DNA from: an uncultured Eubacteriales bacterium
Lineage (GTDB): Bacteria > Bacillota > Clostridia > UBA1212 > CASDQQ01
DNA length: 32,867 bases
Assembly: GCA_964392835.1 (NCBI GenBank)
Contig: CAYMRI010000003.1
Location: forward strand, 1 to 32,867
Direction: 5' to 3'
Shown here one piece after another: positions 6,998 to 32,867 of this stretch; within the stretch, counting starts at the first letter, position 1, and each line of letters starts with the position of its first letter. Under the pieces are notes generated by a model that had not been told where the DNA came from, searched no databases, and worked only from the letters and a program-made list of their open reading frames with translations. Position numbers and translations under genes: made by a program.

Positions 6998-8827
6998 CTA
7001 CCCTTCCCCGGCCACCAGCGAATAATTTTTAGACTGCAGGCGGAACATTTCCGCATATTTGCCGTTTTGCGCCATCAATTCCTCGTGACTGCCTCGCTCA
7101 ATAATGCGACCCTGTTCCATCATAAAGATGGTATCCGCTGCCTTGGTGGTGGAAAGTCGGTGGGAAATAAAGATAACCGTCTTGTCTTCCGCCGCTTCCA
7201 GCATAGAGTGGTTCACATGGTATTCACTCAGCGGGTCCAAGGCGCTGGAAGGTTCATCCAAAATCAGCACTTGCGGATTGCCTGCAAACACACGGGCAAT
7301 AGCCACTTTCTGCGCTTCCCCACCGGAAAAAACCGCGCCGTCCTCATGGAATTCCTTGGTTAGCTGGGTATCCAAACCAGCGGACAAATCAGACAACTTC
7401 TCTGTAAAGCCGGCCTTGTCCAAAGCGTCTCGCACTTCCTGCTCTCTGTCCTCTGCTTTATCCATCACCACATTTTCTGCCAGCGATGCTGCAAACATGG
7501 AAAAATCCTGAAAAGCCGTTCCAAAACATTCTCGATATGCTGTCAGCTTATAGTCCCGGATATCCTTTCCATCGTAACAAATAGCACCTTCTGTTGGGTC
7601 ATACAATCTAGTCAACAGTTTTACCAATGTGGATTTTCCGGCACCGTTATAGCCTACAATTGCCACCTTTTCACCCGGGCGAATATCAAAACTAATATCG
7701 TGCAAAGTGGGTTTTTCATTGCCCGCATAGGTAAAACTTACATTGCGGCAGGAAAAAGCAGCGGGTTTTGCCGGTGGCGGTAATGCATCCGGTTTATCCT
7801 GCATTTGAATTTCGTAATCCAAAAAACCGCGGAACTTTTCGGTGTATAAGCTGGACTTTTGGAATGCACTCACAGACTGTGCAACATTGTTTAAATGATT
7901 CTTTAATACCCAACTACCATCTAACATACCTGCTAAAGTACCATAGGTAATACTTTTCTGCACAATCGCACGATATGCCAAAAGGCCCGTATAGACACCA
8001 TCAATCAAAAATGAATTAAAAACAAAATTTCCAAAAAACATAAGGACGTAAAGTTTGAGGGAATATTTGTCTATCACATGTTTCATCTTTTCATTTGTTT
8101 GTTTAAAATCCTCTTGTAAACTTTCCTTTAAGGGATGTAATCGCATTTCCTTTGCATAATCCGGCAAATAGAAGACGCGATTAATATAGGACCGTTTTCG
8201 TTCAAAAGGCTTATAGTCTACATCCCGTTGAAACCACACTTTGTTGCTCTTTAATGAGGTTATAAACACCCCTAAAAAGGAACAGAAAATAATTAGCAAC
8301 CCGATGCCGTCCATCGTTAGCATAGCAATAGAAATACCGGAAATACCAACCAAACTTTTCATAAAAGAAGATACGTTGCCCAGCAACTGACATACTTGTT
8401 CTTCCGCTTGGGATGCCGCCCAAACAAAGTCGTTATAAAAATCCGGATTACTATAGCAGGTATAATCCAACTTTACCGCTTTGGCAAAAAGTTCCGTTTG
8501 CATCTTTTCTCCTAATTTTTGTCTCTGGCTTGGTTCAAAAACTTCATGGAAAAACGCAGCCAAAATCTGTATCGTTCCACAGTAAAAGAAATAAAGACAA
8601 CCACTGAAAATAACGCCGCCAAAGTCATGTGTCACCGTAACTGCATCCACCGCCAGTTTCATTAACAAAACACCCCAAATGACATCGTTTAATCCAAACA
8701 ACATTTGCAATAAAATATGGGTGATTGCATAAACAGGTGTAAAACGAAATGCATATTTTAGCATAAACAGGTTGTTTTTCAAAACACGACTGAATTTTTG
8801 CTTTTCCATCTTTTCTTGTGGTTTCAT
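6998..8827 (-). CDS. ABC transporter permease/ATP-binding fusion protein (type I exporter half-transporter, MdlB/MsbA-like)
   Basis: N-terminal six-helix TMD followed by an NBD with Walker A GYNGAGKST, signature FSGGEAQK and Walker B ILDEPSSALD. Its ATG overlaps the stop codon of the upstream ABC gene (ATGA). Confidence 0.9.
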   Translation of the reverse strand: MKPQEKMEKQKFSRVLKNNLFMLKYAFRFTPVYAITHILLQMLFGLNDVIWGVLLMKLAVDAVTVTHDFGGVIFSGCLYFFYCGTIQILAAFFHEVFEPSQRQKLGEKMQTELFAKAVKLDYTCYSNPDFYNDFVWAASQAEEQVCQLLGNVSSFMKSLVGISGISIAMLTMDGIGLLIIFCSFLGVFITSLKSNKVWFQRDVDYKPFERKRSYINRVFYLPDYAKEMRLHPLKESLQEDFKQTNEKMKHVIDKYSLKLYVLMFFGNFVFNSFLIDGVYTGLLAYRAIVQKSITYGTLAGMLDGSWVLKNHLNNVAQSVSAFQKSSLYTEKFRGFLDYEIQMQDKPDALPPPAKPAAFSCRNVSFTYAGNEKPTLHDISFDIRPGEKVAIVGYNGAGKSTLVKLLTRLYDPTEGAICYDGKDIRDYKLTAYRECFGTAFQDFSMFAASLAENVVMDKAEDREQEVRDALDKAGFTEKLSDLSAGLDTQLTKEFHEDGAVFSGGEAQKVAIARVFAGNPQVLILDEPSSALDPLSEYHVNHSMLEAAEDKTVIFISHRLSTTKAADTIFMMEQGRIIERGSHEELMAQNGKYAEMFRLQSKNYSLVAGEG

Positions 8828-10656
8828 TCTGCTACACCCCCTGCCAATCCGTACATTTCTGCCTGTAGTCGGAACATTTCAGCATATTTTTGATTGTTCG
8901 CCATCAAAACAGTATGGGTTCCATATTCTGTCACCTTTCCTTGCTCCATTAAATAGACTTGGTCTGCTAACGTAGCAGAAGAAAGACGATGTGAAATAAA
9001 TACTACTGTTTTTTCCACACATACCTTCTTTAGGTTTTCAAACATTTGATATTCCGCAATGGGGTCTAGTGCACTGGAAGGTTCGTCCAACACCGCAAAT
9101 TCGCAACCGCTGGCATAAAGTCTGGCAATGGACAACTTTTGAAATTCCCCTCCGGATAACACTAAACCGTCATCATCAAATTCCCTGGTTACCATGGAAT
9201 CCATTCCCTTTTCACTTTCCATCACTTTGTCATATATTTCCGCATTTTTTAGTGCCTCTTCCACCTTTTGTCGTTCCTGTTCCTCTACCGGATGCAACAA
9301 TACATTTTCTGCAATGGACATGGCAAAGGCATGATAGTCTTGAAACACAGCACCAAACAAGTTTCGATATTCTGCCACAGCGTATTCTTTTATATTGATT
9401 CCATCCAACAGAATTTCACCTTCCGTTGGATCATAAAGCCGAAACATCAACTTAATCAATGTGGTTTTTCCTGCACCATTATGGCCCACCAACGCAATGG
9501 TTTTTCCGGGATGTAATACCATATTCACATTTTGAAGTACAGGCGTTTTTGAACCTGCATAGGTATAAGATACATTTCGAAATTCTAATGTATGTGGCTG
9601 TTGTTTGGGAACCATTCCTGTTTGACTTTGCGAAATTTGAGGCTGATACTCCAAAAAGTCACGAAAATTTTGAATAAATAACCCATCCTTTTGCATTGTT
9701 GTAAACATATCTAAAAAGAATGTCAAATTCCAAGAAATTGTGTTAATGGCATTAATCAATACGACAAACATACCGGGTGAAATGGTTTTACTGATTAATA
9801 CGCGATATCCTGCATAAATAATTGCCAGCGGCCATCTACAAATTCGAAGCAATGTTTCCAAGATACGATATATTGCAATTTTTGCGCCTAATGTACGATA
9901 GTTATGCTGAAGTTCTTTAACCCCCTGTGCATAATGGTCTTTTTGCACTTGAAAAATATTTGTTAAGCGCAATTCCTTGGCATAGTTTTCCAAATAAACC
10001 GTACGATTCACATACTCTTTCTTTCGTTGCGGTTCAGTATTTGCTTGAATCAAATCATATGTAACTTTATGTTTTTTACTGGTTGCTCCAAGGGATCCGA
10101 CAATTGGAAAAATCAAAAAAATTAATGCAAATGGATCCAACATGAAAATAGTAGCCATAATCGTCGTTGCAGATAAAAATACACCGACAGTTCTTGTGAA
10201 ATTATCCAATATTCCGGCTACCCTGCCCCCGGTTTCTGAGGCTGCTCGCGTATACTTGGTATAAAATTCCGTACTTTCGTAACATGCTAAATCAACATCT
10301 GCCGCCTTATCAAACAACATTTGATTGACCGCCTGGTAGAAAGCAATATCCGTTTTTGCACGGTAGGATTGCCAATACCAACTTCCCCAAAGTTGAAAAG
10401 CCAATTGTATCAATACCGTGATTAGCACAAAAAGCAATACCACCCCAAAGGAACGTCCCTGTTCTAATGCACCAAATAATACACCCGTAAAAAGAACATT
10501 ATAATAGGAATTGGATAAACAACTGAGGGTTTGATAGATAAAATCTATCAGCACACGGCTTTTCTTTACCTTCCAAGCGATGCCAAGTAAGTAAAAATTG
10601 TTTTGTATCGCCTTGCGAAAAGAAATCTCCTTCTTTTCTTTCTTTTTTTGTTTCAT
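8824..10656 (-). CDS. ABC transporter permease/ATP-binding fusion protein (partner half-transporter; likely heterodimeric exporter)
   Basis: TMD followed by an NBD with Walker A GHNGAGKTT, signature LSGGEFQK and Walker B VLDEPSSALD. The start is trimmed to MKQKKKEKK (ATG 10656) with RBS GAGGTG 8 nt upstream; the ORF-track start is a GTG. Confidence 0.9.
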   Translation of the reverse strand: MKQKKKEKKEISFRKAIQNNFYLLGIAWKVKKSRVLIDFIYQTLSCLSNSYYNVLFTGVLFGALEQGRSFGVVLLFVLITVLIQLAFQLWGSWYWQSYRAKTDIAFYQAVNQMLFDKAADVDLACYESTEFYTKYTRAASETGGRVAGILDNFTRTVGVFLSATTIMATIFMLDPFALIFLIFPIVGSLGATSKKHKVTYDLIQANTEPQRKKEYVNRTVYLENYAKELRLTNIFQVQKDHYAQGVKELQHNYRTLGAKIAIYRILETLLRICRWPLAIIYAGYRVLISKTISPGMFVVLINAINTISWNLTFFLDMFTTMQKDGLFIQNFRDFLEYQPQISQSQTGMVPKQQPHTLEFRNVSYTYAGSKTPVLQNVNMVLHPGKTIALVGHNGAGKTTLIKLMFRLYDPTEGEILLDGINIKEYAVAEYRNLFGAVFQDYHAFAMSIAENVLLHPVEEQERQKVEEALKNAEIYDKVMESEKGMDSMVTREFDDDGLVLSGGEFQKLSIARLYASGCEFAVLDEPSSALDPIAEYQMFENLKKVCVEKTVVFISHRLSSATLADQVYLMEQGKVTEYGTHTVLMANNQKYAEMFRLQAEMYGLAGGVAE

Positions 10657-10719
10657 AATACAATTCACCTCTATTCGATACACTCATTGTAACATGTAGT
10701 TTTGAAAAAAACAAGCACA

Positions 10720-10752
10720 GGGGATAACTGGTAGAAACCTTGGGATAATTGG
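10720..10752. promoter_or_regulatory. LytTR-type direct-repeat box: GGGATAACTGG-N10-GGGATAATTGG (repeat starts 21 bp apart)
   Basis: Two near-identical 11-mers at 10721-10731 and 10742-10752 in the divergent promoter region between the ABC operon and the LytTR response regulator. The 9-11-bp repeats with a roughly 12-bp spacer match the AgrA/LytTR binding-site architecture. A TACAAT -10 element (minus strand, 10691..10686) lies 28 nt beyond the box toward the ABC genes. Confidence 0.5.
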
Positions 10753-10812
10753 TGTGGAATTTCTGCCAAAAGTGCATTAAAATAATAGTTAAAACATAAG
10801 GAGGAAACATTT

Positions 10813-11547
10813 ATGCTTACCATTGCCGTTTGTGACGATCAACATGTATTTGCCGACAAAGTGGTGCAGGAACTGAAACATTTATGCACAATCCATATGG
10901 CAAAGGGATTTGCATATGAAATTCTACAACCTTTTGAATCTGCAAAAGATGTATTAGACACACTTTCACAGAAAAACATAGACATTCTGTTTTTGGATAT
11001 TGAAATGCCGGATATGGATGGATTTGCGTTAGCCAAACAAATCCGCGAACAATACCCTGATTTGATGTTGATTTTTGTTTCCGCTTACGACGAACTTGTG
11101 TTTCAATCTTTTGTCTATCACCCCTTTTGGTTTTTGAGAAAAGCCAGAATTGAGCAAGAATTGCCTCACATTTTTACAAAAGCCATTGAACAATATATGT
11201 CCAGCAAAGAAGCGGAATTGTTTCAAACCAAAAACGGGAATGTTCTTCTCCCATTAAAAGAAATTTTGTATTTAGAAGCAGATCGCAATTATTACAACAT
11301 CTATTGCACAACAGGCGCATTGTACAAATGCCGTGGCACGCTTTCCGAATTAGAGTCTCGATTTAAGAAACACAATTTTTACCGGGTGCATTCTGCTTAT
11401 TTGATTAACATGGCACATATTTGGCAGATTTCTTCTGTAAGCAGTGTTACCATGAAAAATAACAAACTGATTCCGGTAAGCCGTCACAGAGCCACGGCGT
11501 TTAAAAATGCATATTCTGCATTTGTCCGCAGGAGGATTACACGATGA
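10813..11547 (+). CDS. LytTR-family response regulator (REC plus LytTR DNA-binding domain; AgrA/ComE-like)
   Basis: Receiver domain with the acidic pocket and the phospho-acceptor Asp (in LFLDIEMPDMDG), plus a C-terminal LytTR domain. RBS AAGGAGG lies 7 nt upstream of the ATG. Confidence 0.9.
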   Translation: MLTIAVCDDQHVFADKVVQELKHLCTIHMAKGFAYEILQPFESAKDVLDTLSQKNIDILFLDIEMPDMDGFALAKQIREQYPDLMLIFVSAYDELVFQSFVYHPFWFLRKARIEQELPHIFTKAIEQYMSSKEAELFQTKNGNVLLPLKEILYLEADRNYYNIYCTTGALYKCRGTLSELESRFKKHNFYRVHSAYLINMAHIWQISSVSSVTMKNNKLIPVSRHRATAFKNAYSAFVRRRITR

Positions 11548-12839
11548 TTTCTACATTGTTTGAAGTAGGGGCAAATCTGGTTGATACCATTTTGGCAATT
11601 TATTTTTTTACACGCTTTCATTTTGCATCTTTGCGGAAAAACTATTTTGTACTTCCATTTGCCATTTTCTTTTTTGGCGTTGCCCTTGTGGGTGATCGTT
11701 TCTTTCCCGGCTTCACAATATTTCCTATTCTAATGGGATTTTCTTTCTGCTTAGCCTATACCCTTCTTATATCCAAAAAGCACTATGTACGAGCCATTCT
11801 TTCCACATGCATTTTTTGGATTTCTTATATGTTAATCAGTAGCCTTCTATATATAATCATCTCTATGGTGATAAAGGATTTTGATGTGCTGATGCAGGAT
11901 GCCAACACCGGTTCCCCGCTTCGCTATTTATACTTACTTCTTGGAAAACTTTGTTTGTTTATGATATTGCAACTATTTCTTGTCATTTTTAGAAAAAATA
12001 CTGCTATGGAACTGAAAAACAGTCTTTTAGCTATTTTGTTCACCCTAATTACAGCCTTTGGACTTGGTGCTACCATGGTGCTGACGGCCCAACCCAATGT
12101 TGCAGAGGTTCAAAATGATCTTCTCCTCATTGTTCTTGCTTTTATTGCAGCCAATACGTTATTGTATATTCTCCTGGCACAGATGCAAAAGTTGCAGCAA
12201 CACAAATATGAACTGAAATTATTACAAGAAACGATGCAATTTGAAGAAAGTCGTTATAAAGAACTTTCTGCCATCCATTCTAATGCACAAAAAATGCAAC
12301 ACGATATTAAGAATCATTTGACGGTCATTTCCGGCTATCTGCAAGAAGAAAAAATTTCCGACTGCCACAAATATCTGCAGGAAATATTGGAGCAATCAGA
12401 GAAAGGCAATCAACATTTTTATTCCGGCAATGCAGTTTTAGATTATCTCATCAGTGCCAAAACCGCTTCTTTGCAGGATACTGAAGTAATCGTTTCCGGA
12501 AACGCAGGAGATTTTTCCGATATGAAAGAAACAGACCTGGCATGTCTCATAGGAAATATGCTGGACAATGCCATTGAAGGTTTGGAAGGCGTTGCCGAAA
12601 AACGTATTCAATTATTTTTCCATTTAGAAAACAACAATCAAATTATTATTTGTCAAAATACTATAAAGCACTCTGTACTGCAGACAAATTCGCAGTTGCA
12701 GTCCACCAAGCCAGACAAGGGCAATCACGGCCTGGGGCACAAAATCATTGCCAAAATTGTTGCCGACTATGACGGCATTTACGAGTATTACGAAGAAAAT
12801 GGTATGTTTGGATTGCAAGTCATTTTACCGCAAAAATAA
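11544..12839 (+). CDS. Membrane sensor histidine kinase, GHKL/HATPase_c_5 type (AgrC-like)
   Basis: Roughly six N-terminal TM helices, an H-box (MQHDIKNHLTVISGY) and an AgrC-type ATPase region (GHGLGHKIIAKI). Its start codon overlaps the stop codon of the response-regulator gene (ATGA). Confidence 0.85.
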   Translation: MISTLFEVGANLVDTILAIYFFTRFHFASLRKNYFVLPFAIFFFGVALVGDRFFPGFTIFPILMGFSFCLAYTLLISKKHYVRAILSTCIFWISYMLISSLLYIIISMVIKDFDVLMQDANTGSPLRYLYLLLGKLCLFMILQLFLVIFRKNTAMELKNSLLAILFTLITAFGLGATMVLTAQPNVAEVQNDLLLIVLAFIAANTLLYILLAQMQKLQQHKYELKLLQETMQFEESRYKELSAIHSNAQKMQHDIKNHLTVISGYLQEEKISDCHKYLQEILEQSEKGNQHFYSGNAVLDYLISAKTASLQDTEVIVSGNAGDFSDMKETDLACLIGNMLDNAIEGLEGVAEKRIQLFFHLENNNQIIICQNTIKHSVLQTNSQLQSTKPDKGNHGLGHKIIAKIVADYDGIYEYYEENGMFGLQVILPQK

Positions 12840-28040: not shown

Positions 28041-29465
28041 TTAGATTATATATGATTTCAGCCGTTCTTTCAACAGATTCCTTGTGGTTTCAGGATTGGC
28101 TTTTCCTTGCATTTCCTTCATAATAAGTCCCATGAAAAAAACAAGCGCTTTCTCTTTTCCTTCCTGATATTCTTTGACGGCTTTGAGATTATTGTGTAAC
28201 ACACAGTCAATAACAGGTAAAATTATTTTTTCATCGGAAATCATTGCCAAGTTATGTTCTTTTACATAGCTTTCCGGGTCTGCGCCTTCCAAGCAAACAG
28301 CTTGTAAAACTTGCTTTCCCACATTTCGATTAATAGTGCCCTGATTGACCAATCCAACTATTTTCCCAAACACAGCACCATCGATATTTCCCTTTAAAAG
28401 TTGCATCCATTCACTCATAATCCAATTTGCAACATCCTTGGGCTGTTGACAAACCGCAGTTGCTTTTTCAAACAACTCCCCTATTTTTTTAGAAGTAATT
28501 AAAAATTCCGCATCATAGGAAGACAGCCCAAACTGGTTTATGTACCGTAACTTTCTGGCTTCCGGCAATTCCGGCAAAGAATTTCTGATTGCATCTATCT
28601 GCCCTTGCAAAATTTTGACCGGTGGCAAATCCGGGTCCGGGAAATAACCATAATCAGAGGCATTTTCCTTCAACCGCATAGCCTGACTCTCACCTTTTGT
28701 ATCATCCCATCGGCGGGTTTCTTGAGATATGCTGCCACCGGCTTCTAATACTGCAATCTGCCGTTTCTTTTCTTCTTCAATCGCTCGTGCAATAGCCTTA
28801 AAGGAATTGAGGTTTTTCATTTCCGTGCGAGTACCGAAAGCTTTTTGTCCTACCGGGCGCACTGACAAATTCACGTCCACACGCAGGGAACCTTCCTCCA
28901 TTTTGCAGTCAGAAACTTCTATGAATTGTAAAATGTTTTTCAATTGTTCTAAAAACGCCACCACTTGCTGTGCATCACCAAAATCCGGTTGGGTCACCAA
29001 TTCCAAAAGCGGTATGCCGCATCGATTGTGGTCTACTGCTACCTCACCGGTGTTGGCATCATAGGTCAACTTCCCCGCATCCTCTTCCATATGAATTTCT
29101 CGTATGCGGATTTCTTTTTGCGCACCTTGTTCTGTTGATATCATAAGATGCCCATTTTGACAAATAGGTTCATAAAATTGTGTAATTTGATACCCCTTGG
29201 GCAAATCCGGGTAAGAATAATTTTTCCGATCAAAAGATGTATTTTTAATAATTTCGCAGTTGGTGGCAAGGCCGGCTCTCACAGCATATTCTACCACTTG
29301 CGGATTTAGTGTCGGCAGCGCACCCGGCTTACCGGTACAAATAGGACAACATTGTGTATTGGGTGCCGCTCCAAACTGGGTACTGCAATTACAAAACATC
29401 TTAGCTTTAGTGGACAATTCCACATGTACTTCCAACCCGATAACGGGTTCATACTGTTTTATCAT
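28041..29465 (-). CDS. gatB: Asp-tRNA(Asn)/Glu-tRNA(Gln) amidotransferase subunit B
   Basis: Full-length GatB: N-terminal VIGLEVHVEL, then NTQ, DRKNYSYPD, CKMEEGSLR, NLNSF, ETRRWD, and a YqeY-like C-terminal domain. RBS GAGGAAAG lies upstream. No gatC or gatA is present in this window. Confidence 0.85.
   Translation of the reverse strand: MIKQYEPVIGLEVHVELSTKAKMFCNCSTQFGAAPNTQCCPICTGKPGALPTLNPQVVEYAVRAGLATNCEIIKNTSFDRKNYSYPDLPKGYQITQFYEPICQNGHLMISTEQGAQKEIRIREIHMEEDAGKLTYDANTGEVAVDHNRCGIPLLELVTQPDFGDAQQVVAFLEQLKNILQFIEVSDCKMEEGSLRVDVNLSVRPVGQKAFGTRTEMKNLNSFKAIARAIEEEKKRQIAVLEAGGSISQETRRWDDTKGESQAMRLKENASDYGYFPDPDLPPVKILQGQIDAIRNSLPELPEARKLRYINQFGLSSYDAEFLITSKKIGELFEKATAVCQQPKDVANWIMSEWMQLLKGNIDGAVFGKIVGLVNQGTINRNVGKQVLQAVCLEGADPESYVKEHNLAMISDEKIILPVIDCVLHNNLKAVKEYQEGKEKALVFFMGLIMKEMQGKANPETTRNLLKERLKSYII
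28045..28073 (-). promoter_or_regulatory. SigmaA promoter for the GH43 tandem (-35 TTGAAA, 17 nt, -10 TATAAT), embedded in the 3' end of gatB
   Basis: On the minus strand, TTGAAA sits at 28073..28068 and TATAAT at 28050..28045, about 45 nt upstream of the GH43-B ATG at 28001. Confidence 0.5.
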
Positions 29466-29952
29466 TTTTCTTTCCTCGCAAAAAACGGTTTACACGGAAT
29501 AAAAACGGCCTGCACGGTCTGCTCCATCCCCAAAGTGTTACAAACCCGTTGTATTTCTTGTTGTCAACAGAGAACTTTTTCCCTTTTCGTTCAATGGCCT
29601 CCACTACAGCAACAATTTGCCCCGAGGTAATCTGCTCCGTCCAAGTTTGGGCATCTCCGTTGATTTCCAGTCTACCGGTCTTATCTTTTTTGATCATGCG
29701 ATGTAGCACATAAGTTCCGTCTTCCCGTCGAAAGAGGACAATGTCTTTCTTTTTAGGAACCCTTTGCTTTGGCGACACCAAAAACACTTTATCCCTTTGG
29801 GGATGTAAAGTAGGCGTCATACTGGTTCCGGTAACCACCAGTGGAAACACTCCACCGCTTTCCACAACATCAAAAATGACAGGTGCCAACTTTTCAGCAG
29901 CAAGCACCTGCCTGATTTCTTTGATTCCTTTTGTATTTCTTTCTTCAGCCAT
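29449..29952 (-). CDS. Soluble S26-type (SipW/Sec11-like, Ser-His dyad) signal-peptidase-like protein
   Basis: Catalytic-box order typical of archaeal/ER-type signal peptidase I: VVTGTSMTPTL (Ser box), KDIVLF, and VLHRMI (His box). No N-terminal TM helix is present. It overlaps the gatB start by 17 nt and the PqqD-like gene stop by 8 nt. Confidence 0.6.
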   Translation of the reverse strand: MAEERNTKGIKEIRQVLAAEKLAPVIFDVVESGGVFPLVVTGTSMTPTLHPQRDKVFLVSPKQRVPKKKDIVLFRREDGTYVLHRMIKKDKTGRLEINGDAQTWTEQITSGQIVAVVEAIERKGKKFSVDNKKYNGFVTLWGWSRPCRPFLFRVNRFLRGKKNDKTV

Positions 29953-30211
29953 CCAGCAACCCTGCGGCTTTCATATTGGAAATCATCACATCAATATCCT
30001 GTGTAGCCTGCTGGGGTGTCACTTCAAATTCTCCTACCATAGCCGCCACAGCTTCTTCTTTGGTATGCTCTTCCTGCAAAAACTGCCACAAAAACGCAGC
30101 TGTTTCATTTAAAGAAATCATACCGTTTAATTCGGCAGCCCGTTCTCCTACCGGCACTACCATCCAGGAAGAGGCGATTTTTCGAAGAACAAATCCTGAT
30201 TTTATTTTCAT
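29945..30211 (-). CDS. PqqD-family protein (RiPP recognition element-like peptide chaperone)
   Basis: About 88 aa with the PqqD pattern: a beta-hairpin start (GFVLRKIASSWMVVPVGE), LNETAAFLWQFL, and a C-terminal helix ...DIDVMISNMKAAGLL. The ATG at 30211 is the likely start; the ORF-track start is a TTG. Confidence 0.65.
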   Translation of the reverse strand: MKIKSGFVLRKIASSWMVVPVGERAAELNGMISLNETAAFLWQFLQEEHTKEEAVAAMVGEFEVTPQQATQDIDVMISNMKAAGLLDG

Positions 30212-30284
30212 AATACGCAAACCCGTCCTTTACCCTTAATAATTGTATTGTAGTATACAAACGGCGGGCATGCAAGAGGTGTTT

Positions 30285-31604
30285 TTATTCTGTTATTTCT
30301 GTTTGCACCAGCATCTTGTTTTCTCTGTCATAGAAAAAATCAATATTCTCATAAGAAAAGGTTTCTTCATTATACCGTTGTACATAAAATCCGTCTGCAC
30401 CTAATGCATGAAACACTTCTCCTTCGTAACTTCCTAACAAATACAATTCTGTGCCGTCATAGCCAACTACACAAAACAAAGGCTCTTTCCTCGGGGTATA
30501 ATCGAAAAACTGTGTATTCATAGCATCTGCTGCCTGCATTGTCAAAATAACGGCGCCGGTATCTGCATCCTGTTCCAAAAAGCGTTTCATATCGGTCATG
30601 GATGCAGCATAATAGCCAGCAGGAATTTCTTCTCCATAGTTCAATGTCATACTTGTATCATTTACTGTTACCTTTACTCCATTTTCTAAATACTCCACAG
30701 CCACGTTGTCCAAAGTTCCGTCCGCATCCAAATCCAGTTTTGTTTTTTTCAGTGCTTCTATATTTTCATCAAATGGTGTTTCAATCTGTTGCACTTCGCA
30801 AGGTTCAAAGACACACCTTCTTTCTACGGTCATATCTGTTTTCAGCAGTTCTCCTTTTCGAATCACTTGGTTTTTGTCAACGACAAACCGCCGATAGCCA
30901 TAAGTACCATAGTCAAATAAATATATGGTATCCCCACCTTTTTTTATCACAGTAACTTCTTCCAGGTTGTCTGTGGTATACCAGGCACCGGGCACACAAA
31001 AATCCAACAACAAATAGCTAATCCAGTATGTATAATCATAACCGGCACTCCGAAGAGGATTTTCCTGTTCCTCCCATTGGTCCTCTTTCTTTACATAATA
31101 ACCATTGTAATAACCTTGATTCTTTTTTAGATACCATTGCGACCCTCTGGAAAAATAATAATATTGGCAGTTGGTAATTCCTTGGTCTAAACGCCAGTCA
31201 TCTAAAATTACTTCCCCTTCCATTTTGCTACCATTGGAGTGCTCAATTAAAATTTTACCGCCACCTGTCTTTCGCGTCTCCAGAAAAGCATTTTCCATAT
31301 CTTCAATAATTTGGGTACATTGTGCTGTTCCCATTGCATAAGTACCCACTTCCATTTCAACGCCATTGTACAAAAGAATTCCTGTAACGGCTAACATTAC
31401 AATCATTACAATGGTTGCCAGGCAGGCAAATGCATAACGGGCATACCGACTCTTCGGCTTTACCACCGGCGCATCTACAAAGACCATATGATACATTTCC
31501 GTCTCCACCGAGCCTTCTGCCTGACACTTTTCCACCAGCCGCTGTTTCATATCATCCTGCATTGTTATTTTCTCTGCAGCCTTTTTTAATAAACGCATAT
31601 CCAT
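30285..31604 (-). CDS. Single-pass anti-sigma factor with a roughly 370-aa extracytoplasmic domain of unknown fold (Tyr/Trp-rich)
   Basis: The roughly 60-aa N-terminal cytoplasmic segment and one TM helix (YAFACLATIVMIVMLAVTGILLY) give an anti-sigma topology. The start codon sits 1 nt after the sigma stop codon. Confidence 0.65.
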   Translation of the reverse strand: MDMRLLKKAAEKITMQDDMKQRLVEKCQAEGSVETEMYHMVFVDAPVVKPKSRYARYAFACLATIVMIVMLAVTGILLYNGVEMEVGTYAMGTAQCTQIIEDMENAFLETRKTGGGKILIEHSNGSKMEGEVILDDWRLDQGITNCQYYYFSRGSQWYLKKNQGYYNGYYVKKEDQWEEQENPLRSAGYDYTYWISYLLLDFCVPGAWYTTDNLEEVTVIKKGGDTIYLFDYGTYGYRRFVVDKNQVIRKGELLKTDMTVERRCVFEPCEVQQIETPFDENIEALKKTKLDLDADGTLDNVAVEYLENGVKVTVNDTSMTLNYGEEIPAGYYAASMTDMKRFLEQDADTGAVILTMQAADAMNTQFFDYTPRKEPLFCVVGYDGTELYLLGSYEGEVFHALGADGFYVQRYNEETFSYENIDFFYDRENKMLVQTEITE

Positions 31605-31605
31605 A

Positions 31606-32070
31606 TCACAGAAACTCCTTTCGATATTTTTCTTCCAGCAGCTTACGACCTTTTTGCAGGCGCATTTTTACTGCGGAGGGAGTTTTCTCAATCATGCGGG
31701 CAATTTCTTCCACTTTATATTCCTCTACATAATGGAGCAACAGTACCGTTTTAAATTTTTCCGGCAGCGCCATAAGTGCTTCCATAATGCCAAGTTCTTC
31801 TTTTTCCATGGAAAAATGTTGTATGGATTCCAGTTCCACCTGTGGATGTCTTATGCGCGCCCGCAACACATCCCGGCATTGATTGGTGGCCACAGTCACC
31901 AACCAAGCCTTTTCTTTTGTTTCGTTTTCAAAACTTGGCGCCTTCTGCATATATTTCATCAGTGTTTCCTGCACCGCATCTTCCGCATCTTTTTCATTTC
32001 CCAGCAAACACAAGCAAATGCGAAGCAGTGTATTGCCATAGGTATGTATAATTGTTTCAATGGAATCCAT
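31606..32070 (-). CDS. ECF-type RNA polymerase sigma factor (sigma-70 regions 2 and 4)
   Basis: 154 aa, with a region-2-like segment (...EDAVQETLMKYMQK...) and a region-4 HTH (...EEIARMIEKTPSAVKMRLQKGRKLL). RBS GGGAGG lies upstream. Confidence 0.85.
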   Translation of the reverse strand: MDSIETIIHTYGNTLLRICLCLLGNEKDAEDAVQETLMKYMQKAPSFENETKEKAWLVTVATNQCRDVLRARIRHPQVELESIQHFSMEKEELGIMEALMALPEKFKTVLLLHYVEEYKVEEIARMIEKTPSAVKMRLQKGRKLLEEKYRKEFL

Positions 32071-32174
32071 CTGCTTCCCCTCCCTTTTGATATAAAAACG
32101 CTGTGCAACTGTGTTTGGTCAATTTTTAGTATAAAAAATTATTGTCTGATTTGTGTCGGTCAGTTCAGATTGCA

Positions 32175-32322
32175 TCTCAGTCGTTACCGTCCTTTTACAT
32201 ACGGTATCTCAGAAGTTACCGCCCGCAGAAGGTGGGTATCTTTTTTTACACAAAGAAAATTTCATAAATAAATGGTTTTTTTACTGAATTTGGTGAGATA
32301 CCGTCATGTTCCGGGCGGTAAT
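32175..32322 (-). promoter_or_regulatory. Structured 5' leader of the sigma operon with interleaved complementary segments (alternative helices or pseudoknot)
   Basis: GGTATCTCA (32203-32211) pairs with TGAGATACC (32295-32303). TTACCGCCCG (32216-32225) pairs with CGGGCGGTAA (32313-32322). A direct repeat ATCTCAG-NN-GTTACCG occurs at 32175-32190 and 32206-32221. Confidence 0.4.
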
Positions 32323-32387
32323 TATTAAGATAGCGTACATAACAGGACGATAAAATCCGACATGCAATCCCAACCACCCGTGTGCCA

Positions 32388-32443: not shown

Positions 32444-32867
32444 TTACTTACCAACCACAATATTCACCAAACGGCCGGGAACTACAATCACTTTCTTTAC
32501 AGCAGCACCATCGCCCATTTGAGCTTTCAGAGCCTCAATTTGTGCAACCACAGTGCTGTCTGCCAAGGCAATGGCTTCTACTTCTGCCGGTGTTGCCTCT
32601 GTCGGAACCACCACTCTGGCACGCACCTTACCATTGATCTGTACACCCAACTCTACTGTGGACTTTACAAGCGCTGCTTCATCATAGGCAGGCCAGTTTT
32701 GGGCATGCAATGGTTTTTCGTCCATGTTGGTCAATTCCCACAATTCTTCTGTCATATGAGGAGCTACCGGGTTTAACAATAACAACAGATTCTTGAAGTC
32801 CCCCTTTGACAAAGAGCCTGCAGCATATGCTTCATTGACAAAACTCATCATAGCAGCGATGGCGGTG
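32444..32867 (-). CDS. leuS: Leucyl-tRNA synthetase, C-terminal part; the gene continues beyond the window end
   Basis: The C-terminus ...VKKVIVVPGRLVNIVVGK matches the conserved LeuS tail. The upstream portion is consistent with a class I anticodon-binding domain. Confidence 0.7.
   Translation of the reverse strand, partial: TAIAAMMSFVNEAYAAGSLSKGDFKNLLLLLNPVAPHMTEELWELTNMDEKPLHAQNWPAYDEAALVKSTVELGVQINGKVRARVVVPTEATPAEVEAIALADSTVVAQIEALKAQMGDGAAVKKVIVVPGRLVNIVVGK

What the first reader, a model, noticed from the sequence alone, without database searches (positions are those of the whole stretch)
29449..32070. ECF sigma / anti-sigma pair hard-wired to a PqqD-like RRE protein and a soluble SipW-type (Ser-His) signal-peptidase homolog
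Four minus-strand genes are packed with 1-nt, 64-nt and 8-nt junctions and then overlap gatB by 17 nt. They are an ECF sigma factor, a single-TM anti-sigma factor with a large extracytoplasmic domain, a PqqD-family protein and an S26 archaeal/ER-type signal-peptidase-like protein. The PqqD fold is the peptide-binding module that recruits RiPP maturases. The peptidase has the Ser box GTSMTPTL and the His box VLHRM but no membrane anchor or signal sequence. Known anti-sigma site-1 cleavage uses membrane signal peptidases (the RsiV paradigm), whereas PqqD proteins normally partner with radical-SAM, lasso or cyclodehydratase enzymes; none of those is present here. A soluble Ser-His peptidase plus a peptide-recognition chaperone translationally coupled to a sigma/anti-sigma pair is not an arrangement I know to be described. 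One hypothesis is a dedicated regulated-proteolysis module in which the PqqD-like protein presents a segment of the anti-sigma factor, or a small unannotated peptide, to the peptidase. The alternative is a minimal RiPP-like leader-processing pair.
Basis: partly seen in the sequence, partly recalled or inferred. Interest (0 to 1): 0.78.

Follow-up and report, generated by a model that had tools for sequence, protein, structure and literature searches.

The report
Orphan RiPP leader-peptidase pair beside sigma genes
The small PqqD-like protein and the soluble signal-peptidase-like protein are a recently described type of peptide-guided leader peptidase pair from natural-product pathways, stranded here without the rest of its pathway, and its position next to the sigma/anti-sigma genes is a lineage-specific accident, not a functional link.

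Summary
The four genes, their junctions and their domain assignments are real. The proposed functional link is not supported.

- **Family:** The 167-aa protein is a soluble SEC11/SipW-type peptidase with invariant Ser44, His84, Asp100 and Glu106. The 88-aa protein is a lasso-type PqqD RRE.
- **Known kind:** This pairing was described in 2026 (Popov et al., PMC13381572). [quoted passage not shown] - **Usual context:** In at least ten independent Clostridia loci the same pair sits in a cassette. The cassette holds a radical SAM enzyme, an HprK/ScmC-like protein, NTP_transf_5, an ABC exporter and [W/Y/F]xxP…ENIA precursors. None has an adjacent sigma/anti-sigma pair.
- **Close relatives:** One has the pair without sigma/anti-sigma. 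One has a lipoprotein gene in that slot. One keeps sigma/anti-sigma but shows a deletion scar where the pair was.
- **Conserved unit:** The unit kept is promoter-like element–PqqD–peptidase–gatB, under purifying selection.

It is an orphan, probably trans-acting, RRE-dependent leader peptidase pair.

The parts
29449..29952 (-). 167-aa soluble SpI-like (SEC11/SipW-type, Ser-His) peptidase, homolog of the RiPP leader peptidase LppS. Conserved residues are Ser44, His84, Asp100 and Glu106. It has an N-terminal helix (residues 19-31) and two C-terminal helices.
   Evidence: Family hits PF00717/PF10502/TIGR02228. Conserved S44, H84, D100 and E106. Best PDB sequence and fold match is SEC11C, with Ser, His and GD aligned. 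Model pLDDT is 83.6. hhalign to LppS gives 98.9% probability, E 2.6e-17. It is 35% identical to Anaerocolumna WP_073589069.1, from SSN cluster 4 of the Popov dataset. No transmembrane segment. dN/dS is 0.13-0.25.
29945..30211 (-). 88-aa discrete PqqD-like RiPP recognition element (RRE), lasso-B1/LppB type. An alternative TTG start at 30220 gives 91 aa.
   Evidence: PF05402 at 1.8e-16 and lasso_PqqD at 4.7e-10. The family profile hits TbiB1, TfuB1, LppB (9x8z_B, 3.8e-5) and PbaB1. It keeps every invariant position of the cassette RREs. dN/dS is 0.06-0.12. Natural PqqD-peptidase fusions exist (P0137).
30241..30280 (-). Conserved promoter-like element in the spacer upstream of PqqD (…CTCTTGCxxxC…TTTGTATACTACAATACAATT). 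It also lies directly upstream of gatB in the relative that lost the pair.
   Evidence: The element is conserved in the window, L011, L014, L025 and L024 while the flanking spacer diverges. The generic sigma-70 scan did not call it, because the window's -35 hexamer is weak. Its function is inferred.
28041..29465 (-). gatB, the amidotransferase subunit B gene. Its start lies within or next to the end of the peptidase ORF, and its ribosome-binding site lies inside that ORF's 3' end.
   Evidence: GatB_N at 7e-118 and NF004012 at 5e-184. The PqqD-peptidase-gatB order is kept in the window, L011, L014 and L025.
31606..32070 (-). ECF-type sigma-70 factor. It is a neighbour, not part of the peptidase module.
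   Evidence: Sigma70_r2 plus r4_2, and TIGR02937 above its cut-off. It is present without the PqqD/peptidase pair in L024 and absent from L014 and L025.
30285..31604 (-). 439-aa single-pass membrane protein, a putative anti-sigma factor with an ectodomain of about 360 aa. It is lineage-restricted and fast-evolving.
   Evidence: One transmembrane segment at about residues 58-78. No Pfam or NCBIfam hit. Only 3 homologs among 5.8 billion proteins. dN/dS is 0.20. The structure model is unusable, with pLDDT 34.5.

Best explanation
The PqqD-like gene and the 167-aa gene encode a two-protein, RRE-dependent leader peptidase of the LppB/LppS kind.

**Proposed mechanism:**
- The small winged-helix RRE binds a [W/Y/F]xxP motif in the leader of a ribosomally made precursor peptide.
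- The RRE docks against the N-terminal helix of the soluble SEC11/SipW-type Ser-His peptidase.
- The peptidase then cuts off the leader. In the related Clostridia cassettes the cut is probably after the conserved …EN of the …ENIA[S/T]S motif.

**State in this genome and its close relatives:**
- The pair is an orphan. The rest of the usual cassette is not in cis. The missing parts are the radical SAM enzyme, the HprK/ScmC-like kinase, the NTP_transf_5 transferase, the ABC exporter and the precursor genes.
- The pair sits between a conserved promoter-like element and gatB and is kept under purifying selection.
- Its substrate is therefore most likely encoded elsewhere in the genome, so the pair would act in trans.

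**The neighbours:** The ECF sigma and putative anti-sigma genes are an independent, variable insert in the slot between leuS and this operon.

**Shown here:** homology, conserved catalytic residues, genomic contexts, separability of the two pairs, and purifying selection.

**Inferred:** peptide binding, the cleavage site, action in trans, and promoter function.
For: **1. Published precedent.** LppS is a soluble SipW homolog. It cleaves the LppA leader only when the RRE LppB is present, and S29A, H68A and D93A mutants are inactive (PMC13381572).

**2. Homology to that precedent.**
- The window peptidase family aligns to LppS over 127 columns, from the N-terminal helix into the C-terminal extension. 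hhalign gives 98.9% probability and E 2.6e-17. Pairwise identity is 24%, E 1e-7.
- Ser44 aligns with S29, His84 with H68, and Phe57 with the conserved F42.
- Glu106 lies 6 residues after the GD motif, the same offset as D93 in LppS.
- The window peptidase is 35% identical to a member of that paper's RRE-associated SSN cluster 4.

**3. Fold.** The model has pLDDT 83.6, and SEC11C is the top sequence and fold match in the PDB.

**4. Context census.**
- Every informative locus outside the window's lineage has the pair with a radical SAM enzyme and a ScmC/HprK-like protein. These loci are L001, L003/4, L012, L015, L017, L018, L019, L020, L023, L027/28 and L029-31.
- Most of them also carry an ABC exporter, and several carry NTP_transf_5.
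- Each carries 1-2 small ORFs that begin MKK[W/Y/F]xxP…ENIA[S/T/Y]S.

**5. Natural fusions.** PqqD-peptidase and NTP_transf_5-peptidase fusion proteins exist.

**6. Selection on the orphan pair.** dN/dS is 0.06-0.12 for PqqD and 0.13-0.25 for the peptidase, against 0.13 for gatB, at dS 0.4-1.2.

**7. Precedent for split systems.** The LPP dataset lists SpI genes whose RRE and precursor lie elsewhere in the genome.
Against: - No precursor-like ORF is detectable anywhere in the 32.9-kb window or in L011, L014 or L025. This was tested with a leader HMM run with --max and with motif scans.
- No kinase, radical SAM enzyme or transferase is detectable there either. A substrate is therefore assumed, not seen.
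- The rest of the genome could not be examined.
- Identity to the characterised LppS is low (24%).
- The acidic residue at the D93-equivalent position is Glu, not Asp.
- One close relative (L024) has deleted the pair, so it is dispensable in at least that lineage.
- No biochemical data exist for this Clostridia subfamily.
Confidence: 0.7

Rival explanations
1. The PqqD-like protein would present a segment of the anti-sigma factor to the soluble peptidase. The four genes would then form a dedicated regulated-proteolysis module that controls the ECF sigma factor.
For: The genes are adjacent and on the same strand in the window and in L011. Signal peptidases perform site-1 cleavage of RsiV; this is established knowledge, not tested here.
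Against: - The two pairs are separable among close relatives. L014 is leuS-PqqD-peptidase-gatB with no sigma/anti-sigma. L025 has an unrelated lipoprotein gene in that slot.
- L024 keeps sigma (92% identical) and anti-sigma (73% identical) under purifying selection, but the pair is deleted. A 41-nt remnant of the PqqD 5' end remains.
- A conserved promoter-like element separates the two units.
- The peptidase has no anchor or signal peptide. It cannot reach the roughly 360-aa extracytoplasmic domain.
- The anti-sigma sequence has no match to the leader motif.
- At least ten cassette loci have no adjacent sigma/anti-sigma pair.
Confidence: 0.04
2. The pair is a non-functional remnant of a decayed RiPP cassette. 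It would persist only because gatB's ribosome-binding site and start codon are embedded in its 3' end.
For: All other cassette genes are missing in cis. L024 shows that the pair can be deleted as long as the last ~20 nt carrying the gatB ribosome-binding site are kept.
Against: - Both ORFs are intact in four species-level lineages.
- dN/dS is 0.06-0.25 at dS up to about 1.2, comparable with gatB.
- All family-invariant and catalytic residues are retained.
- Constraint from gatB's ribosome-binding site could explain only the last ~20 nt.
Confidence: 0.1
3. The pair has been co-opted for a non-RiPP, housekeeping substrate. It would perform RRE-guided maturation of a cellular protein, possibly linked to the gatB operon it is embedded in.
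For: The PqqD-peptidase-gatB arrangement and its tight junctions are stable in four lineages. Purifying selection acts without any RiPP genes in cis.
Against: No candidate substrate was identified. gatB association is absent from all other family members. L024 does without the pair. Split LPP systems with components elsewhere in the genome are documented, which is the simpler explanation.
Confidence: 0.1

Closest known systems
LppB/LppS of linear polyphosphorylated peptide (LPP) clusters in Bacilli (Popov et al., Nat Commun 2026, PMC13381572)
   Same: - Both have a discrete PqqD-like RRE gene next to a soluble archaeal/ER-type signal-peptidase homolog of about 150-167 aa, with the two genes adjacent or overlapping.
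- Both have conserved Ser and His residues, a GD motif and an acidic residue 6 positions after it. Both also have the N-terminal helix and the C-terminal helical tail.
- The window peptidase family matches LppS at profile level, with 98.9% probability.
- Related Clostridia cassettes share the HprK-like, NTP-transferase and MsbA-like exporter genes and a [Y/W]xxP leader. They are often embedded in capsule loci.
   Different: - Identity to LppS is only 24%. The window protein belongs to a sister subfamily, that paper's uncharacterised SSN cluster 4 type.
- The Clostridia cassettes add a radical SAM enzyme. They use a …ENIA[S/T]S junction instead of …FET|AQS.
- The window has only the RRE-peptidase pair. 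It has no kinase, transferase, cassette-type exporter or precursor in cis.
- The D93-equivalent position is Glu106.
Lasso peptide B1/B2 split leader peptidase (for example TbiB1, TfuB1, PbaB1)
   Same: The RRE is of the same lasso-type PqqD family; the family profile hits TbiB1 at 2e-8 and TfuB1 at 5e-8. The logic is the same: the RRE binds the [Y/W]xxP leader and presents it to a separate peptidase. Fused versions exist in both systems.
   Different: The peptidase here is a Ser-His S26-fold enzyme, not the transglutaminase-like Cys protease B2. There is no macrolactam cyclase.
SipW / SEC11 (S26B signal peptidases)
   Same: They share the catalytic fold and the Ser-His-Asp signature. SEC11C is the best PDB match in both sequence and fold searches.
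   Different: The window protein has no membrane anchor. It scores far below the SipW equivalog cut-off, 13.8 against 190 bits. Its genomic partner is an RRE, not secretion or biofilm genes.
RsiV/sigma-V type regulated proteolysis, in which signal peptidase performs site-1 cleavage of an anti-sigma factor
   Same: An S26-family peptidase gene lies near an ECF sigma gene and a single-pass membrane protein gene.
   Different: In that system the protease is a membrane-anchored housekeeping signal peptidase acting outside the membrane (established knowledge). Here the peptidase is soluble, and it is not co-conserved with the sigma/anti-sigma pair.

Membership tests
RRE-dependent SpI-like leader peptidase pair (LppB/LppS type) | S26B (SEC11/SipW-type) fold with conserved Ser, His and acidic residues | tested here: met
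   S44, H84 and D100 are invariant and E106 is conserved in at least 90% of homologs. These residues align to the SEC11C Ser/His/GD and to LppS S29/H68. The fold search returns SEC11C first.
RRE-dependent SpI-like leader peptidase pair (LppB/LppS type) | No membrane anchor or signal peptide on the peptidase | tested here: met
   The highest Kyte-Doolittle 19-residue average is 1.73, in a segment containing charged residues. The model shows an N-terminal amphipathic helix, not a transmembrane helix.
RRE-dependent SpI-like leader peptidase pair (LppB/LppS type) | Discrete PqqD-like RRE encoded next to the peptidase | tested here: met
   PF05402 at 1.8e-16, with an 8-nt gene overlap. The family profile hits LppB (9x8z_B) at 3.8e-5 and lasso B1 proteins.
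RRE-dependent SpI-like leader peptidase pair (LppB/LppS type) | Sequence homology to LppS (WP_029196374.1) | tested here: met
   hhalign gives 98.9% probability, E 2.6e-17, over 127 columns. BLASTP gives 24% identity, E 1e-7. The window protein is closer to the SSN cluster 4 member WP_073589069.1, at 35% identity and E 3e-20.
RRE-dependent SpI-like leader peptidase pair (LppB/LppS type) | Cleavage of a precursor leader only in the presence of the RRE | not testable with these tools
   This needs an in vitro or in vivo cleavage assay.
Complete LPP-like RiPP gene cluster | HprK/ScmC-like kinase gene in the cluster | tested here: not met
   phmmer with three ScmC queries found no hit in the window, L011, L014 or L025. 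Pfam annotation of the window genes shows none.
Complete LPP-like RiPP gene cluster | NTP_transf_5 transferase gene in the cluster | tested here: not met
   No hit in the window.
Complete LPP-like RiPP gene cluster | MsbA-like ABC exporter in the cluster | tested here: not met
   The only ABC genes are 19-23 kb away (6998-10683). They match the cassette exporter weakly, at 1e-24 to 1e-26, against 1e-131 to 1e-176 between cassettes.
Complete LPP-like RiPP gene cluster | Precursor ORF with a [Y/W/F]xxP leader | tested here: not met
   The leader HMM, run with --max and E up to 10, found every cassette precursor it was built from and none in the window, L011 or L014. The L027/L029/L030 precursors were found by reading the ORFs. 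The LPP-type motif scan was negative.
ECF sigma/anti-sigma regulated-proteolysis module with a dedicated protease | Protease genes co-conserved with the sigma/anti-sigma pair | tested here: not met
   L014 and L025 have the pair without sigma/anti-sigma. L024 has sigma/anti-sigma with the pair deleted. At least ten cassette loci have no adjacent sigma.
ECF sigma/anti-sigma regulated-proteolysis module with a dedicated protease | Recognisable anti-sigma domain in the 439-aa protein | tested here: inconclusive
   No Pfam or NCBIfam hit. The topology and the 1-nt junction fit an anti-sigma factor. The N-terminal motif is shared with the serpin-domain protein that follows a paralogous sigma in L024. 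The structure model is unusable.
Bona fide type I signal peptidase SipW | NCBIfam equivalog score and an N-terminal membrane anchor | tested here: not met
   NF046067 scores 13.8 bits against a 190-bit cut-off. TIGR02228 scores 26 against 51.85. No transmembrane segment.

The most novel reading that the evidence does not exclude
In this Clostridia genus an RRE/SpI-like leader peptidase pair has been captured into the gatB operon. It has been kept under purifying selection for a long time with no RiPP genes in cis. It may therefore now mature an ordinary cellular protein or peptide by RRE-guided cleavage, not a natural-product precursor. The anti-sigma factor is the least likely such substrate.
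Probability: 0.1. Interest if true: 0.6.

Novelty: new member of a known kind. Interest (0 to 1): 0.25.

Why it matters
The case shows that tight spacing on one strand is not evidence of a functional module. Three neighbouring genomes were enough to separate the two gene pairs.

- **For annotation:** The 'S24/S26 peptidase' and 'PqqD family protein' here should be read as an LppS/LppB-like leader peptidase and its RRE.
- **For natural-product mining:** The useful by-product lies outside the window. Clostridia carry a radical-SAM-containing relative of the LPP cassette with a clear precursor signature ([W/Y/F]xxP…ENIA[S/T]S). The 2026 paper listed this subfamily only as an unanalysed cluster.
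- **For biology:** An orphan pair kept under selection hints that these peptidases can work in trans, away from their cassette.

Tried and rejected
- **Locus searches with wide alignments:** The search for related loci with A1 and A2 failed because there was no conserved 7-10-column stretch. The narrower A3 gave only 7 genome loci and 2 metagenome loci. The census therefore rests on about a dozen independent loci, not hundreds.
- **Anti-sigma homologs:** The search gave 3 proteins. A wide co-conservation test from that side was impossible, but one of the three (L024) proved decisive.
- **Anti-sigma structure:** The model had pLDDT 34.5 and was unusable, so no fold search was run on it.
- **Literature searches that found nothing relevant:** PqqD + S24 + radical SAM, 'SynChlorMet', PF14907, HPr kinase + PqqD + nucleotidyltransferase, and HprK + radical SAM + RiPP + PqqD.
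- **Rfam:** No family reached its gathering score in the window. The only E-value hit was a spurious miRNA-precursor match that reflects a long hairpin.
- **Generic promoter scan:** It gave no more sites than shuffled sequence and missed the conserved element upstream of PqqD.
- **Precursor search in the window:** The LPP-type regex and the Clostridia leader HMM were both negative.
- **Window ABC exporters:** I considered whether the two ABC genes and the LytTR system (7-13 kb) belong to the module and rejected it. They are 19 kb or more away, separated by housekeeping genes, and only generically similar.
- **Not possible with these tools:** multimer prediction of PqqD + peptidase + peptide, and inspection of the rest of the genome.

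Full report
**1. What is in the sequence**

One search confirms four minus-strand ORFs packed between leuS (C-terminus at 32444-32851) and gatB (28041-29465):
- a 154-aa ECF sigma factor (31606-32070);
- a 439-aa protein (30285-31604), 1 nt downstream of sigma;
- a PqqD-like ORF (29945-30211 from ATG, or to 30220 from TTG);
- a 167-aa ORF (29449-29952).

The 167-aa ORF overlaps the PqqD ORF by 8 nt and gatB by 17 nt.

Profile searches give these results:
- Sigma70_r2 and r4_2 hit the sigma factor.
- PF05402 hits the small protein at 1.8e-16.
- PF00717, PF10502 and TIGR02228 hit the 167-aa protein. PF00717 is above its Pfam cut-off. The NCBIfam SipW and archaeal-SPase models are below their equivalog cut-offs.
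- The 439-aa protein has no hit.

The 439-aa protein has one strong transmembrane segment near residues 58-78. The 167-aa protein has none. The rest of the window is an ordinary spore-forming Clostridia chromosome. It holds the spoIIIA operon, nusB, efp, glycoside hydrolases, a LytTR two-component system and two ABC genes. It holds no radical SAM, lasso or cyclodehydratase gene.

**2. What the 167-aa protein is**

- Its homologs keep Ser44 (GTSM), His84 (VLHR) and Asp100 (GD) invariant, and Glu106 in at least 90% of sequences. No conserved Lys is present.
- A full HMMER scan finds a large family: 337 representative clusters at E below 1e-30 and 4031 at E below 1e-10. Almost all members are 145-170 aa.
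- The best solved relatives are the eukaryotic signal peptidase subunits SEC11C and SEC11A, with Ser, His and GD aligned.
- An AlphaFold model (pLDDT 83.6) has an N-terminal helix, an S24/S26 beta core and two C-terminal helices. It retrieves SEC11C first in the PDB.
- Some family members are fused to a PqqD domain or to an NTP_transf_5 domain.

**3. Its usual genomic company**

More distant homologs (37-53% identical) were traced to their contigs. In every informative locus outside the window's own lineage, the PqqD-peptidase pair lies in a cassette. These loci are L001, L003/4, L012, L015, L017, L018, L019, L020, L023, L027/28 and L029-31.

The cassette contains:
- a radical SAM enzyme of the peptide-maturase type;
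- a ScmC/HprK-related P-loop protein (PF27840);
- usually an MsbA-like ABC exporter and an NTP_transf_5 protein;
- one or two 80-100-aa ORFs that begin MKK[W/Y/F]xxPxhxxhxhxhxENIA[S/T/Y]S.

The cassettes are often embedded in capsule-type loci with Wzz, CpsB, LytR_cpsA_psr and glycosyltransferase genes. None has an adjacent sigma/anti-sigma pair. L015 has an unrelated ECF sigma 4.5 kb away on the other strand.

**4. It is a known kind**

A full-text search led to Popov et al., Nat Commun 2026 (PMC13381572). That paper describes 'linear polyphosphorylated peptide' (LPP) clusters of Bacilli.
[quoted passage not shown] The clusters often sit in capsule loci.
- Precursors carry YxxPxVLxHQxIxFETxxS.
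- LppS cleaves the leader only with LppB present. S29A, H68A and D93A mutants are dead. The RRE-leader beta sheet packs on the N-terminal helix of LppS.

Using the LppS sequence from the paper's Supplementary Data 1, I compared it with the window protein.
- The window family aligns to LppS with hhalign probability 98.9% and E 2.6e-17.
- Pairwise identity is 24%.
- Ser44 matches S29, His84 matches H68 and Phe57 matches F42.
- Glu106 lies 6 residues after the GD motif, exactly as D93 does in LppS.

The window protein is 35% identical to Anaerocolumna WP_073589069.1. That protein belongs to the paper's RRE-associated SSN cluster 4, which also includes Dehalobacter and which the paper left unanalysed.

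The RRE family profile hits the lasso B1 proteins TbiB1 and TfuB1, and also LppB and PbaB1. The window RRE keeps every invariant position of the cassette RREs.

The Clostridia leader matches the LPP leader in register. Both have an aromatic residue at position 1, Pro at position 4 and Glu at position 15. The residue before the junction sits at position 16, and a Ser/Thr sits at core position 3-4. I therefore infer cleavage after …EN.

**5. The sigma/anti-sigma link does not hold**

Close relatives of the window share leuS, gatB and GH43 synteny (gatB 72-78% identical). They show five arrangements of the leuS-gatB interval.

| Locus | Arrangement between leuS and gatB |
|---|---|
| Window, L005-10, L011 | sigma, anti-sigma, PqqD, peptidase |
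| L014 | 325-nt spacer, PqqD, peptidase; no sigma/anti-sigma |
| L025/26 | unrelated 271-aa lipoprotein gene, PqqD, peptidase |
| L024 | a second sigma, a serpin-domain membrane protein, sigma (92% identical), anti-sigma (73% identical), then gatB after 105 nt |

The 105-nt spacer in L024 contains three recognisable pieces:
- the conserved promoter-like element;
- 41 nt of the 5' end of the PqqD ORF, 85% identical to window 30205-30165;
- the last ~20 nt of the peptidase ORF, which carry gatB's ribosome-binding site.

This is a clean deletion scar.

The unit conserved in four of five arrangements is therefore promoter-like element-PqqD-peptidase-gatB. The slot upstream of it is variable. The anti-sigma protein has only three homologs in 5.8 billion proteins. 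In addition, a soluble cytoplasmic peptidase could not reach the roughly 360-aa ectodomain, and the anti-sigma sequence has no leader-like motif.

**6. Is the orphan pair alive?**

Yes, by sequence evidence.
- Between the window, L011 and L014, dN/dS is 0.06-0.12 for PqqD and 0.13-0.25 for the peptidase, at dS 0.4-1.2.
- For comparison, dN/dS is 0.13 for gatB, 0.08-0.10 for sigma and 0.20 for the anti-sigma.
- The leader HMM and phmmer searches find no precursor, kinase, radical SAM enzyme or transferase in the window, L011, L014 or L025.

The LPP dataset documents SpI genes whose RRE and precursor lie elsewhere in the genome. In L003, L017 and L018 the PqqD-peptidase pair sits at the edge of the cassette, separated from the other genes. 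This fits a mobile two-gene sub-module.

**7. Verdict**

The best-supported reading is an orphan, probably trans-acting, RRE-dependent Ser-His leader peptidase pair of the LppB/LppS kind. It is lodged in the gatB operon and sits by accident next to a lineage-specific ECF sigma and putative anti-sigma insert (confidence about 0.7).

The rivals and their weights are:
- a functionless remnant, about 0.1;
- co-option for a non-RiPP substrate, about 0.1;

Novelty is low for the window itself. It is a new member, in an unusual orphan context, of a kind described in 2026. The more interesting lead is outside the window. It is the radical-SAM-containing Clostridia relative of the LPP cassette and its precursor family, which I could not find described in the searched literature.

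Noticed in passing
window 32163-32374 (leuS-sigma intergenic region): A ~210-nt imperfect long hairpin with 79-nt arms that are 72% complementary. The RNA minimum free energy is -90.6 kcal/mol, z = -9.0 against shuffles. Homologous sequence is present in L014, L024 and L025 and is largely deleted in L011. It borders the variable slot between leuS and the PqqD-peptidase-gatB operon. No Rfam family reaches its gathering score. It could be a MITE-like element or a structured RNA.
   Followed up: partly
L001, L003, L012, L015, L017-L020, L023, L027, L029-L031 (for example L003 7741-12847, L019 5042-11836): Clostridia relatives of the LPP cassette carry an added radical SAM enzyme and 80-100-aa precursors. 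The leader is MKK[W/Y/F]xxP…ENIA[S/T/Y]S, and many precursors have a Cys near the C-terminus. The cassettes often sit in capsule loci. The main text of the 2026 LPP paper does not mention radical SAM. Its SSN cluster 4 appears to be this subfamily.
   Followed up: partly
L024 509-2849: A close relative has an extra ECF sigma gene followed by a 616-aa single-pass membrane protein. The ectodomain of that protein is a serpin plus BspA-type LRR repeats. Both genes are inserted between leuS and the sigma/anti-sigma pair. The N-terminal motif (…I.ITSDIQQRVIQNC) resembles that of the window's 439-aa protein.
   Followed up: partly
L024 4679-4773 versus window 30280-30165 and 29469: This is a deletion scar. 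The promoter-like element and 41 nt of the PqqD 5' coding end are joined to the last ~20 nt of the peptidase ORF, which carry gatB's ribosome-binding site. It shows that the pair was lost from an ancestor that had it.
   Followed up: yes
window 6998-12839: A low-GC stretch (0.37-0.39 against about 0.44) holds two tandem ABC ATPase/permease genes of about 610 aa on the minus strand. A divergent LytTR response regulator and GHKL histidine kinase pair lies next to them. This may be a peptide-signalling or export island. It is only generically similar to the cassette exporter.
   Followed up: no
window 28041-29465: gatB stands alone, with no gatC or gatA nearby. It is followed by two paralogous GH43 + F5/8-type-C genes. 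Its ribosome-binding site lies inside the 3' end of the peptidase ORF.
   Followed up: no
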